NCBI GenBank assembly: GCA_964016885.1
Contig: OZ024742.1
Location: 310,496,001-310,560,000, forward strand
DNA from: Eledone cirrhosa
Lineage: Eukaryota
Length of the DNA: 64,000 nucleotides
Direction: 5' to 3'
Made by a program: the position numbers and the translations under genes. The notes under the pieces are model-generated. The model was not told where the DNA came from. It made no database searches and saw only the letters and a program-made list of their open reading frames with translations. Below are positions 8,440 to 62,356 of the stretch, piece after piece; position 1 is the first letter of the stretch, and each line of letters begins with the position of its first letter.

Positions 8440-8628
8440 ACAAGTTTATCCCGGGTTCAATCGGGGGTAATCACAGTAAGTAAGGTACTCAATGCATAGC
8501 AGAGTATAAGTATTTAATATAGGAATGGCTTCTACAGGACTAGAACTGTTTCATTCGGAAGAAATCATCAGGAAGCCCGGATTTCTCCCGAATGAAGCAG
8601 TACTAGTCCTGTAAAAGCCATTTCTATA
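8440..8628 (-). mobile_element. Short PLE-derived fold-back insert in (TA)n
   Basis: 8581-8628 is an inverted copy of about 8518-8565; contains a hammerhead; TA tracts on both flanks. Confidence 0.7.
8527..8577 (-). ncRNA. Type I hammerhead ribozyme
   Basis: GGCUUC-CUGAUGA-uUUCuuccGAAu-GAAA-CAG(uucuaguc)CUG-UA^GAAGCC; stems I and III pair fully; cleavage triplet GUA. Confidence 0.8.
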
Positions 8629-8682
8629 CATATATATATATATATATATATATATATATATATATATATATATATATATATA

Positions 8683-8792
8683 TAGGACCAAGTAGGGTCC
8701 TACTTGTTCCTATTACCCACTCTACTACCCTAAGTATTGAGTACTTTAGTGAGTTATGGTCCATCTGGTTCCTTACCACATTTCCTTCGTTA
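8683..8792 (+). mobile_element. PLE-derived short insert, family B, with a 14-bp inverted 5' arm
   Basis: Homologous to the reverse complement of 46668-46770 and to 49382-49418; flanked by (TA)n. Confidence 0.7.
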
Positions 8793-9696
8793 TATATATA
8801 TATATATTGAATATATGTTGGTTGTTTAGCGACACCTCATTATGCAGATTGGAGCACTCGACGAAGTACGCAGGTTCGTTTGTTTACTCCGGAGTAATGT
8901 AAAGTAATTAAGTCAAATATACGGGATAACAAATTATTGTTATAGGTAGTCCACTTAGATGTAGTCCAGTTAGGGTACTCCGAGTAGTGGATAGTATCAA
9001 CGCTTGGCTAAGTTTGCCTCAACAATGCGTTTCCATAAAATGAAAATATTTTATCTGTCAGATAATAAATAATTCTTACGGTCACCAAACCTACGGTAAA
9101 GGAAACGGTACATTATTTAAGCCCCGCCTTATCTCTACACTATATATAATACACCCCATGACAGCCTTTACATGTCAATTTCATACATCTGCCTCATATC
9201 AGCTCGTTTTACATGCTAAAGTCATAAGTATACTCTATGTCTTACTTAGATTGATGTTGTGATTATTTCAACTAATTTATTGCTAGCATTGTTAGTATTG
9301 TTATTTTTGTTCTGATTTAATGCCACTACTATGTATAGAAGCCATGCCTGTGTATTCCCTTCATTCTCGCTAGCTCTGATGAATTGACTGGTTATAACTA
9401 TGTATTGGTGATCGATTGACGCTGAAACAGGCAGTAGCGATCTCTAGACCTACCAGTTCAGAGAAACAATTGTCAGCAATGTGATTAAAGCCCTTATTGT
9501 ATAGCAAACCATGTCACTCTTCTTTCTTGATATATATATATATAAATACATTATCGGAGAAAGCTTTTAGCGATACTCCGGCCAAATCCCAATTCATTCA
9601 ACATATATATATATATATAAGGATGAAAAAACAGTAGAACATGCTAATGGGATTTTCTCATAGAATAACAGCAAAACATTTATTTAAAAAAGGAAT

Positions 9697-9737
9697 TATA
9701 GTACCGGTTTCAGCCATGCGAGCTTCTTCGTGCTACA
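9697..9737 (-). ncRNA. Decayed minimal hammerhead
   Basis: UGUAG-CACGAAGA-AGC(ucgcaug)GCU-GAAA-CCGG-UA^CUAUA; core altered, palindromic CCGG loop III. Confidence 0.5.
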
Positions 9738-10424
9738 GAAATGTATAATAACCATTTATTTATAATGGAAGAACTCATTGGATAGTGTTGTCCTGGACGT
9801 GCCTGAAAGGAAAATCAAAAGAAAAAACATGTTTGTCACAACTGACGTTTGTTTGATCAATGATGTATTGGAACAGAACCTATGACAAGTTAAAGATCAA
9901 CCACAACATTGATCTCCCGGCTATGTATGTTAGAGGGAGATGATGATTACACGGTTAAAGATTATGAAATGCTATATGAATTCCAATTTCCTGAGATTTT
10001 ACATTTATTAAAGAATTACTTTGATCGTCGTTTACAATTAAATAGGATTAGTTTAATTTTAATTAAATTATTTGAGTGGTAATGAATTTCACACATGACA
10101 TTTAAATATTTGATAGGTTGTCAAATGAACAAACACTCAACATGACATTAAAATGATCCAGTATCCTCGCTACGGCTCTGGGGCCAAATAAGTGTTAGAA
10201 TGCGATATACATTTTGATTACATAGACACATACAGCCCATACATTTGCATTGCATGTATTATACGTTTTCTCTCTCAACTGTTTATCGAACAAGAACCAG
10301 TCACTGCGAGATGATGGCTCAAGAAATCGAGTTACCCCATTTCCCACATGAAAACAAGTCCTGGCTAGTCCTCCACTAGGATAGAGAATATTTTCCATCG
10401 GTTTCACGATCTAGCACACTCGAA

Positions 10425-59400: not shown

Positions 59401-59952
59401 TGGTCAGTTCGTTGGCGACTAAACTGGCAACCCCACCAAGGTTTCTTGGGTGAGGAGGGTGACTTTGGACATCCTGCAGGACTAAAAACAAAACCTGTCA
59501 AAGGGCAAAGGAGCTCTTCAGAGTCAATGGCCATCCAAAATCACCGGGAGAGATGACCCCTTAGCCTTTGTCAAGGCAGAATTCTAGGAGAAGGAAAACT
59601 CTTATATAACACCTGCAACTCTGATGGTATCCAATGATGTTGACTTGTTCTTCTTTTTGGTAAATATCATCTTGGTTAAGAGAGTAGGACTGGCTTTGTG
59701 CAGTGCTTTTGCTCGCTATAAAAGCTTCACGGCACAGGCATTGCTTTATATCTGGAGATCTCTCTGCACTTGTCGTCACATGGTACCATGGGCCCAGCAC
59801 TATGTGTCAATAATTGTCACAAGTGTAGTGTTTGTACCAGAGTTTTCATGTCGCAGGCTGGACTAAAAAGTCACACTTGTTCAGTGCATCGGTAGAGGTT
59901 CTACATGGATATAAAGTAATGGCCATACTCGAAAACGAGTTGGCAGCCACCA
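59401..59952 (+). mobile_element. Bipartite, internally deleted RTE element (5'UTR joined to 3' end)
   Basis: RTE-like 5'UTR motif CTAGGAGAAGGAAAACTCT; terminal zinc finger HKCSVCTRVFMSQAGLKSH; 3'UTR ATGGCCATACTCGAAAACGAG..GCAGCCACCAT; (TA)n on both sides. Confidence 0.65.
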
Positions 59953-60479
59953 TATATATATATATATATATATATACACATGTGTGTGTGTGTGTGTGTG
60001 TGTGTGCATGTGTATAGATATATGTATGTACACATCTATATGTATATATCTACATATATGATATTTATACATACGTGTGTAACACAGAGACTATACACCA
60101 CACACAAACATATGTCTGTGTGTGTGTTTAGGCGAATTGACTGAGTTGTTAGAACGTTGGATAGAAGGTTTTACGGTAGTTGTTCCGGACTCTGGGCTGT
60201 GAGTTTAAATCCCACTGAGGTCAATTTTGCTTTTCATCCTTTCGAAGTCGATAAAAAAGGACCAGTCCAGTACTGGAGTAGATTATCCCTCTTTTATCCT
60301 TCCCACTCTGTCAGTTTCTTTCTTTCTCTGGATATGTTTAGATATGGAGATAATGGGCTCCACCAGATATGTTTTAATGGCAAAGAAATGCCGTCTGTCT
60401 TTATGGCGCCCCTACGACTCCACCAGGAATTACATGTAAAAAAGGGAAAACGTATATATATGTATAATTTTATTATATA

Positions 60480-61085
60480 CTAGACCACCCGTGACCAGTT
60501 GGGTCACGTTCGCTTCAAAATATTTTTTTTAAATCATGTTCACTTAAAAATAATTTTTAAATAATTAAAATATACACAGACATGTATATAATGTGAAATG
60601 AAATTGGAAGGCCCATATATATATATACGTGTGTGTATGTATATATATATATATAAATGTGTGTTTCTATATATATATATATATATATATGTGTGTGTGT
60701 GTATATATATGTGGGTGTCTGTGATCTATATATACACTGGTCATAGACACACACATACATATGTACACACATATATATATATATACACACACACTCATAT
60801 ATATATATACACAACACCACTAGCTCTCTTTCTTCCATTCTCCTTCTCTGTCTTCTCCATATCTCTCTCTCTCTCTCTCTCTCTCTTTATGAAGGTACCC
60901 GGAAAAACCCCATGTCTCGGGAACCCATGGTCCGATTCACGCGAAACTTATATTCCATTTGTATTTCCATTTTAGGGTCAACTTCCTTTCAAAGTATTTT
61001 CACATTATGCGCCCTTTTGGCTGTATTACATTACAGACAAGCAAGCAAGCAGGCAAGCAATCACAGACTTTCAGTAATATATAGA
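60480..61085 (-). mobile_element. Non-autonomous Helitron H2, inverted second copy
   Basis: Reverse complement of 52687-53380 including hairpin and CTAG. Confidence 0.8.
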
Positions 61086-62220
61086 TAGATATGAGGAGGT
61101 TAATTGTCAGAATAATTGCAACGTCAGATAAAATGTTTTGAGATATTCGTTCCGTCTCTCTGCGCTCGGATCTTAAATACTCCCTTGTTTAACTTTGATT
61201 TTCATCCTTTCGAGGTACTTAGAAGTATAAAATGATAGGTTTATTATTACAAAGATATTTGTGTCATAACTACTGCCGTTTGAATTTCAGTAAGTTTTAT
61301 TGGCTGCTAAGATGTTGCTGGTCTTATTGGTAGACCGGTTGGTGAGCTCGTTTGTGGGATGGATGGGAGAATCTTTAGTGAGCAAGTTAGACGACTGGTT
61401 GGTCAATTGGTGTATCAGTTTCTGAATTGGTTGGTGGGCTGATTGATGTACTACATTTATTGTAAATAGTGTAGAGCTAGTTTTCTGAGTTGTTAATGGG
61501 ATCATTTTGGGGCCGGTTGGTGTGTTGGATAATGAACTGGTTGGTGGGCAGTTTGATTGGCTTGTCGGGTGGTTATTCAGGTGGTTAACGTTTTAGCTGA
61601 GAGGGAAAATAGATTTGCAAGGAGCGAAAGTATAGCAATTGTAAAAAAAATTGAAAAGGTGTAGCGTCCATGGAAGGGACATGGAAGTTGTTGACAGTTG
61701 AGATGTGAGGTTACAGACTACAAATCTACAATGTTAGAGCTGTTGCATATCGTATCACTAGTGGGGCATTGTTGTCTGTGATATTGTCTTATATCAACTC
61801 CCTTGCTCAATCTAACCAGCTTTAAATGGGTTTCCAAATGGCAGAATTGGAAACTAATAGATATTTCTTGAGACTTTACACGCACAAGGCACGTAAGAGT
61901 TTTTCTGGTGTTTGTTAAAGCAGAAGATCAATGTCCATTGACATTTTCAGGGAGGGTGGAAATTTTGGATCAGCTCAGATTATATGAAGTATCTCTTTTA
62001 CTTGCTTACCAGTATTGAAACACACCTAAAGGATGTTTTCGTCTTGGAACAGGCTCAGTTAATTGCAACTTTTCCTTCTCAACATATTTAAAATACATAC
62101 ATATATACATACATACATACACACACACACACACACACACACACACACACACACACACACACACACACACACACACACACACACACATATATATATATAT
62201 ATATATATATATATATATAT

Positions 62221-62356
62221 AGTAATAATAATAAATTTGAAGACTAAAATCCAAAGAGGGCTCGATAAGGATAAATATATATCAAATATATAAGAACCGT
62301 AGAGCAAATATTTATTAAAATAACAGATTAAACTTTAATCTGTTATTTTAATAAAT
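62221..62356 (-). mobile_element. Family A insert with a terminal hairpin
   Basis: Same structure and junction as 35532-35670. Confidence 0.82.

What the first reader, a model, noticed from the sequence alone, without database searches (positions are those of the whole stretch)
8440..62356. Many distinct hammerhead ribozymes in tiny (TA)n-targeted Penelope-derived fold-back inserts
Seen: six canonical-core type I hammerheads (8527-, 29635-, 33823-, 42420+, 46003+, 49491+), a three-copy variant family, and at least five decayed or partial ones (9376+, 9697-, 30744+ with mirror, 36399+, 46765/49333, 49713-). Their stems are mostly unrelated. Almost all sit in 100-900 bp inserts bounded by (TA)n, many with an inverted partial copy of themselves. 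Loop III is repeatedly a different palindromic tetramer (UGCA, CUAG, GCGC, AUAU, CCGG). Established: PLE pLTRs carry minimal hammerheads with palindromic loop III that are thought to cleave as dimers, and PLE insertions often have an inverted 5' pLTR. PLE RT (31089) and GIY-YIG (35811-35982) remnants are present here. Inference: much of what looks like unique spacer between TA tracts is a multi-family, TA-specific PLE/retrozyme-like system at roughly one motif per 4-5 kb, invisible to ORF-based annotation.
Basis: partly seen in the sequence, partly recalled or inferred. Interest (0 to 1): 0.85.

Follow-up and report, generated by a model that had tools for sequence, protein, structure and literature searches.

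The report
Penelope-element hammerhead stubs in TA repeats
The hammerhead-shaped RNA motifs are real and are the short tail ends of many Penelope-like jumping-gene families that landed in TA repeats, an estimated 200,000 times in this genome; this is a known kind of element, but the stubs' fixed start points suggest they were likely copied from capped RNAs that begin at the ribozyme itself.

Summary
Observation confirmed: a strict type I hammerhead scan returns exactly the six claimed motifs (shuffles: mean 0.17). All 11 insert families searched are genome-wide repeats. Five link to Penelope-like element (PLE) ORFs: four Hydra-type (a clade already published from Octopus, with (TA)n preference and hammerheads) and one other. 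Two (29635, 33822) are ORF-less head-to-tail units of 321 and ~413 nt, i.e. retrozyme-like; 46003 has a fixed 5' end and no ORF. A 400-kb sample gives 28 strict motifs (~2x10^5 genome-wide); 27 of 28 lie within 200 nt of a downstream TA tract. Beyond the literature I searched: a U4A core fixed in a young intact Hydra family (17,750 exact copies); one long plus one short arm in 155 of 176 fold-backs; and 5' ends piled at the hammerhead's edge with an extra G (70 of 98; 21 of 100), 30 nt below a TATA box in one family, which suggests capped sense templates. Cleavage and expression are untested. The scan noted similar PLE stubs in other genomes. Verdict: new members of a known kind, with useful mechanistic clues.

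The parts
8441..8629 (-). Fold-back stub of the 8527 family; hammerhead 8527-8577; starts at stem I
   Evidence: no ORF link found
8684..8790 (+). 3' tail of the 46765 family, no core
9149..9529 (+). 3' end of a Hydra-type PLE; core at 9376 with poor stem I in the whole family
   Evidence: Hydra-type ORF upstream in 5 of 15 loci
9697..9738 (-). Decayed hammerhead-like motif, loop III CCGG; family not searched
29478..29805 (-). ORF-less 321-nt head-to-tail unit; hammerhead 29635-29676; octamer element at 29767-29774
30447..30943 (.). Near-perfect fold-back of the 30744 family, core on both arms; ORF link not found
31042..31287 (+). Broken RT-thumb fragment, about 80% identical to an intact 775-aa RT+GIY-YIG family with a CX4CxxC linker (Neptune-like)
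33699..34055 (-). ORF-less ~413-nt head-to-tail unit, truncated, with inverted arm; hammerhead 33822-33864
35686..36594 (+). 3' end of an intact 788-aa RT+GIY-YIG family: endonuclease C-terminus 35809-35982, hammerhead-like core at 36399, inverted arm 35686-35811
42372..42529 (+). 3' stub of a 743-aa Hydra-type PLE; hammerhead 42420-42485
42782..42922 (+). Stub of the 713-aa Hydra-type PLE with U4A core at 42856 and inverted tail
45840..46199 (+). Fold-back of a ~250-nt ORF-less unit with a fixed 5' end; hammerhead 46003-46073
   Evidence: 0 of 62 loci with PLE protein hits
46670..46901 (-). Fold-back of the 46765 family: 3' half hammerhead starting in loop II
46926..47146 (+). Fold-back stub of the U4A Hydra family
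49326..49416 (-). Second half-hammerhead stub of the 46765 family
49429..49591 (+). 3' stub of a third Hydra-type PLE; hammerhead 49491-49546
   Evidence: endonuclease C-terminus upstream in L266, L284
49640..49818 (-). Older family with U4C and A14C core changes at 49713; ORF link not found
51587..51706 (+). Stub of the U4A Hydra family
62235..62350 (.). Tail-only fold-back of the U4A Hydra family (like 23985-24097, 35546-35663, 48728-48766); no core

Best explanation
The inserts are short, 5'-truncated and often folded-back ends of many Penelope-like retroelement families, plus ORF-less derivatives that the same enzymes likely mobilise. Shown: each family searched has hundreds to thousands of dispersed copies; five continue upstream into RT/GIY-YIG ORFs, mostly Hydra-type; the hammerhead sits in the pseudo-LTR, 3' of the ORF and again about 190 nt before the start codon in partial tandems; inserts end at one of two TA-like sites in the pseudo-LTR, one long and one short arm joined head to head. 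Inferred: the GIY-YIG domain nicks (TA)n; the nicked end anneals to the distal TA-like site of the RNA and primes the RT; synthesis stops early or at the RNA's capped 5' end, which in at least two families lies at the 5' edge of stem I and leaves an extra G; the new strand then folds back or a second priming occurs, and the mirror arm is resolved at the proximal TA-like site. The hammerheads would cleave weakly, as dimers through palindromic loop III, to trim tandem transcripts; this step is the least supported.
For: Motif excess over shuffles. Compensatory changes between subfamilies: 2 pairs in stem I, 0 of 500 shuffles reach the score; weaker in a second family, 1 pair, 16 of 500. Intact ORFs with RVT_1 + GIY-YIG; Hydra motifs in 713- and 743-aa ORFs; U4A hammerhead ~930 nt after the stop in 5 of 6 long-ORF loci; partial tandems. 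TA tract within 200 nt downstream in 27 of 28 sampled motifs against 24% background. Long+short arms in 155 of 176 pairs against 50% expected. Start-site pile-up: 516 target-joined copies at the stem I edge against 51 at a control site 17 nt upstream, G before the start in 21 of 100 against C in 3 of 100 and G in 3 of 51 at the control (hand counts; p=0.0003 and 0.018); 70 of 98 in the 8527 family (hand count), where six longer copies show a TATA box 29-31 nt upstream (counted by eye). Head-to-tail ORF-less units: 25 of 33 and 22 of 38 unit starts follow the unit's own 3' end.
Against: No ORF link for five families (8527, 46003, 46765, 30744, 49713), so their partner is assumed. In the 29635 family 5' ends fall off smoothly with no pile-up at the cleavage site, and 4 of 49 arms run past it: no genomic trace of cleavage. 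Only 2 of 30 consecutive core-bearing U4A copies start near stem I, so capped-end copies are a minority there. The G excess is not significant in the 46765 family (18 G against 9 C of 100, p=0.12), no consistent extra G precedes the 46003 start, and in the 8527 family the G could be native to an unseen source copy. The control pattern spans a subfamily-variable stretch, which inflates the tenfold ratio. Some pair counts come from loci fetched with fold-back queries.
Confidence: 0.87

Rival explanations
1. Same elements, but the hammerhead fold is mostly a non-cleaving structure (promoter-proximal or protein-binding signal) rather than a working ribozyme.
For: U4A fixed in a young family with intact ORFs; G8A without the C3U partner in all 4 full-length copies shown of the 46765 family; U4C in intact 36399-family copies; no 5' ends at the cleavage site; published PLE hammerheads cleave poorly in vitro (PMC4209133).
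Against: Most families keep the canonical core, an NUH site, covarying stems and palindromic loop III (107 of 214 distinct strict motifs), as selection for dimer cleavage predicts; cleaved RNAs may simply not be copied.
Confidence: 0.35
2. All inserts are an independent retrozyme system that spreads through circular RNA, with PLE remnants as bystanders.
For: Two families are ORF-less head-to-tail units of retrozyme size; a few copies hold more than one full turn.
Against: Five families run directly into PLE ORFs; even the ORF-less units carry the PLE inverted-arm signature and long arrays were not seen.
Confidence: 0.06
3. The mirror arms arise after insertion, through cruciform or replication errors at (TA)n, or are assembly artefacts.
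For: (TA)n is itself palindromic and unstable (general knowledge).
Against: Arms end at two fixed element-internal sites, pair long with short in 155 of 176 cases, differ in junction from locus to locus and have diverged from each other (83-95% identity in the window).
Confidence: 0.04
4. The motifs are chance matches in AT-rich DNA.
For: The core is short; a few single-copy hits are probably chance.
Against: 6 against 0.17 and 28 against 0, 0, 1 in shuffles; covariation.
Confidence: 0.01

Closest known systems
Hydra clade of C-terminal EN+ Penelope-like elements, including Hydra-1_Obim (Craig et al. 2021, PMC8557442; passages, section 11 and supplement search hits seen)
   Same: DKT, CxCX5C linker, CxxC and CxH in the endonuclease, (TA)n targets, hammerhead in the pseudo-LTR, inverted 5' copy with one-sided tail.
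   Different: Several distinct, young, very abundant families (65,142 first-look candidates for the endonuclease); tails of about 80-90 nt rather than 30-40; U4A core; RWR instead of RWK.
Minimal PLE hammerheads (Cervera & de la Pena 2014, PMC4209133; first two of four parts read)
   Same: Type I, extra base after A9, short palindromic helix III, mostly solo copies from truncated PLEs, pairs on opposite strands 100-700 bp apart.
   Different: About 2x10^5 strict motifs estimated here against 2,000-9,000 reported there; U4A and uncompensated G8A cores are not in the parts read.
Animal non-LTR retrozymes (Cervera & de la Pena 2020, PMC7229834, passages; Li et al. 2026 preprint 10.64898/2026.07.22.740005, first part and passages) and newt satellite 2
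   Same: ORF-less 300-420-nt head-to-tail units with one type I hammerhead; PLEs proposed as mobilisers; newt satellite 2 has an snRNA-type promoter (PMC2220036, passage), and both units here keep an octamer element (22 of 23 and 30 of 35 copies; that the octamer is part of such promoters is recalled).
   Different: Here mostly 1-1.5 turns, dispersed in (TA)n with PLE-type inverted arms; circles and cleavage untested.
Penelope elements of Adineta vaga and Drosophila virilis (PMC3846280, PMC2377424; passages)
   Same: Direct plus inverted pseudo-LTRs with tail; TATA/Inr or internal promoter inside the pseudo-LTR.
   Different: PMC3846280 proposes an antisense template for self-priming and leaves it open; the extra G on the sense strand here points to a capped sense template.

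Membership tests
Type I hammerhead ribozyme | CUGANGA and GAAA boxes, three stems, NUH site | tested here: met
   six motifs; covariation; not met in the U4A, U4C and G8A families
Type I hammerhead ribozyme | Self-cleavage, as monomer or dimer | not testable with these tools
   no assay; no genomic trace of cleavage
Penelope-like element (EN+) | RT with C-terminal GIY-YIG in one ORF | tested here: met
   Pfam on 788- and 775-aa ORFs; motifs in 713/743-aa ORFs; applies to the 36399, 42420, U4A, 49491 and 9376 families
Penelope-like element (EN+) | Pseudo-LTR partial tandem, inverted 5' copy, one-sided tail | tested here: met
Penelope-like element (EN+) | ORF link for the 8527, 46003, 46765, 30744, 49713 families | tested here: inconclusive
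   no consistent upstream ORF within about 1.5 kb flanks; longer 5' extensions exist for four of them
Hydra clade | DKT, no GxKF/Y, CxCX5C linker, CxxC and CxH, no CCHH | tested here: met
   713- and 743-aa ORFs (CCHH absence by inspection)
Hydra clade | RWK motif; length generally under 3 kb | tested here: inconclusive
   RWR; the 713-aa family is about 3.3 kb
Hydra clade | (TA)n insertion | tested here: met
Hydra clade | RT phylogeny with published members | not tested
   only motif likeness to Hydra-1_Obim seen in the supplement
Non-LTR retrozyme (29635, 33822 families) | ORF-less short head-to-tail repeat with one type I hammerhead per unit | tested here: met
Non-LTR retrozyme (29635, 33822 families) | Two or more consecutive complete units | tested here: inconclusive
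   2 of 49 arms hold a full extra turn
Non-LTR retrozyme (29635, 33822 families) | Expressed as circular RNA | not testable with these tools
   no RNA holder listed

The most novel reading that the evidence does not exclude
In these PLEs the pseudo-LTR promoter fires at the first base of the hammerhead, so the ribozyme is the capped 5' leader of the element's RNA; the RT copies such sense RNAs right to the cap after priming on (TA)n at a TA-like site just downstream, which makes ribozyme-only inserts by the hundred thousand. That would settle the sense-versus-antisense template question for PLE fold-backs, show directly that retrozyme-type units are inserted by Hydra-type machinery, and leave the hammerhead, even with a U4A core, as a decapping switch or a non-cleaving signal.
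Probability: 0.45. Interest if true: 0.68.

Novelty: new member of a known kind. Interest (0 to 1): 0.45.

Why it matters
The class is published, so the headline is not surprising to a specialist. The value is scale and testability: an estimated 1.4-3.0x10^5 strict motifs, above the 120,000 retrozyme copies reported for axolotl (PMC7229834 heading), in young families (99-100% identical copies) whose ends can be counted. The counts give sharp predictions on three open points of PLE biology: template polarity, how the inverted arm is made, and whether the hammerhead must cleave.

Tried and rejected
Rfam scan: the 150 matches listed were microsatellite hairpins. Pfam on the two short window fragments: 0 families; identity came from intact copies. 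Idea that hammerhead cleavage sets 5' ends: rejected for the 29635 family and not supported for 46003, whose start shares only 7 bases with a cleavage product. Idea that the start at stem I is a splice acceptor: rejected, the AG is kept in the copies. Idea that the 8527 family is only 140 nt: rejected, longer 5' extensions exist. Reading 46765 as a type II hammerhead: rejected by inspection. Lunse et al. on PLE hammerhead variants is not held; it may already describe U4A or G8A cores. A further 200-kb genome sample was not obtained, so density rests on 400 kb. Earlier findings in this genome: none. Literature searches; none of the listed papers or passages read reports cap-derived G or start sites at the hammerhead edge in PLEs, but subscription journals and preprint supplements were not visible.
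Full report
Setting. The window is G000:C3:310496001-310560000 of a 3.0-Gb assembly. Size, about 30 large contigs and dense (TA)n/(CA)n tracts suggest an octopus; this is inference, not tested.

Observation. A strict type I descriptor found exactly the six motifs claimed; 30 shuffles in 1-kb blocks gave a mean of 0.17. 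Fifteen of 16 claimed sites lie in TA-bounded segments of 79-909 nt and 7 of 16 carry a local inverted arm. In 40 stretches of 10 kb at fixed coordinates the same descriptor gave 28 hits against 0, 0 and 1 in shuffles; 27 of 28 have a (TA)4 tract within 200 nt downstream against 24% of background positions. That is 70 per Mb, about 2.1x10^5 genome-wide (Poisson 95% range 1.4-3.0x10^5; mirror pairs make the true range wider), so the window is typical. The 2.0 Mb of fetched loci hold 214 distinct strict motifs in 30 clusters, 15 with three or more members. Stem I covaries between subfamilies of the 8527 family (2 pairs, 0 of 500 shuffles); a second family shows one such pair (16 of 500); related sequences inflate both tests.

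Families tied to ORFs. 35686-36594 is the 3' end, with inverted arm, of a family with intact 788-aa ORFs (RVT_1 plus GIY-YIG); its core occurs as both U4 and C4 in intact copies and its stem I is weak. The fragment at 31042-31287 is about 80% identical to a 775-aa family with a CX4CxxC linker; it is a separate remnant with no hammerhead link shown. The variant family (42856, 46983, 51640) is the end of a 713-aa element: the motif lies about 930 nt after the stop in 5 of 6 long-ORF loci. 42420 belongs to a 743-aa element. Both proteins have DKT, RWR, CxCX5C, CxxC and CxH and lack GxKF, the Hydra-clade signature of Craig et al. 2021, whose supplement lists Hydra-1_Obim with (TA)n preference and a hammerhead. 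49491 and 9376 also have Hydra-type endonuclease sequence upstream (2 of 25 loci in line, 5 of 15). Partial tandems put the hammerhead about 190 nt before the start codon.

Families without ORFs. The 29635 unit is 321 nt; 25 of 33 unit starts follow its own 3' end by a strict rule and several more by eye. The 33822 unit is about 413 nt; 22 of 38. Both keep an octamer element 76-99 nt before the motif (22 of 23; 30 of 35), recalling the snRNA-type promoter of newt satellite 2. Both show inverted arms and TA flanks: retrozyme-like units with PLE insertion marks, in line with the proposal in PMC7229834 and the 2026 preprint. The 46003 unit starts at the same base in all 30 loci fetched with its 5' part and in 12 of 20 arms found without bias; 0 of 62 loci have PLE protein hits. 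8527, 46765, 30744 and 49713 have non-coding 5' extensions but no ORF was reached.

Variant cores. The 31-base U4A core has 17,750 exact matches and all 100 listed carry A, so it is not decay. In the 46765 family all four full-length copies shown have G8A without C3U, and only 5 of 129 distinct copies keep the first box.

How the inserts are built. 3' ends fall at two TA-like sites per family (+70 and +160 in the U4A family). Head-to-head pairs are long+short in 155 of 176 cases, short+short in 17, long+long in 4; independent choice predicts 50%. This is the one-sided tail of the literature, here 80-90 nt long. 5' ends are partly random and partly fixed. In the U4A family 516 copies join the TA target at the first base of stem I against 51 at a control site; the base before the start is G in 21 of the first 100 (19 independent) and C in 3, against G in 3 of 51 at the control (hand counts). 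In the 8527 family it is G in 70 of 98 (hand count), where two long copies have C, and six long copies show a TATA box 29-31 nt upstream. In the 46765 family 61 of 70 unbiased arms start between +26 and +49 or close to it (the filter cuts at +50) and 996 copies join the target there, but G (18) over C (9) is not significant. Untemplated G marks reverse-transcribed caps in L1 and SVA (PMC4859970). I infer capped sense templates that start at or inside the hammerhead; PMC3846280 left template polarity open. Against: only 2 of 30 consecutive U4A copies start there; 46003 shows no consistent G; a native G in an unseen source copy could explain 8527.

Cleavage. Nothing here shows it. Upstream partial units of the 29635 family shorten smoothly, without pile-up at the cleavage site, and 4 of 49 arms pass it. 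Conserved cores, NUH sites and palindromic loops (107 of 214) favour weak dimer cleavage as published; the fixed U4A and G8A forms favour a partly structural role.

Verdict. Real, explained in kind, new in members and scale. Earlier notes of this scan describe like stubs in other genomes; they are not independent proof. The unread Lunse et al. paper and preprint supplements may already cover some core variants.

Noticed in passing
window 926-2083 (+): 385-aa C-terminal piece of a non-LTR retrotransposon with a zinc-finger and restriction-like endonuclease look (weak zf-RVT); clade label from recall.
   Followed up: partly
window 3019-7384 (-): Fragmented LINE with ORF1-like, AP-endonuclease-like and RT pieces (RVT_1 E=9e-28).
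   Followed up: partly
window 811-913, 15236-15337, 16747-17981, 19828-20045, 22103-22262, 25864-26026, 27570-28009, 38103-38288, 39390-40012, 44592-44937, 46501-46666, 55960-56321: A ~190-nt SINE-like repeat in many copies, partly in tandem; one copy sits inside a PLE 3' region in L080.
   Followed up: no
window 24242-24480 and 26025-26263: 239-nt inverted repeat, 90% complementary, around a degenerate trinucleotide array at 24600-25700.
   Followed up: no
window 43037-43126 and 46308-46431: Another TA-bounded fold-back family with no strict hammerhead core; also in L053.
   Followed up: no
window 59412-59952; L103: A 540-nt TA-bounded element; by eye its reverse complement is joined to the fixed 5' end of a 46003-family copy in L103.
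   Followed up: no
L088, L137, L268: Direct junctions between different hammerhead families inside one insert, suggesting template switching between PLE RNAs.
   Followed up: no
L043, L046, L028, L172, L235, L428: Further multi-copy hammerhead families absent from the window, some with long stem III that could fold as monomers.
   Followed up: no
window 63506-63555: Small fold-back next to a TA tract, family unknown.
   Followed up: no
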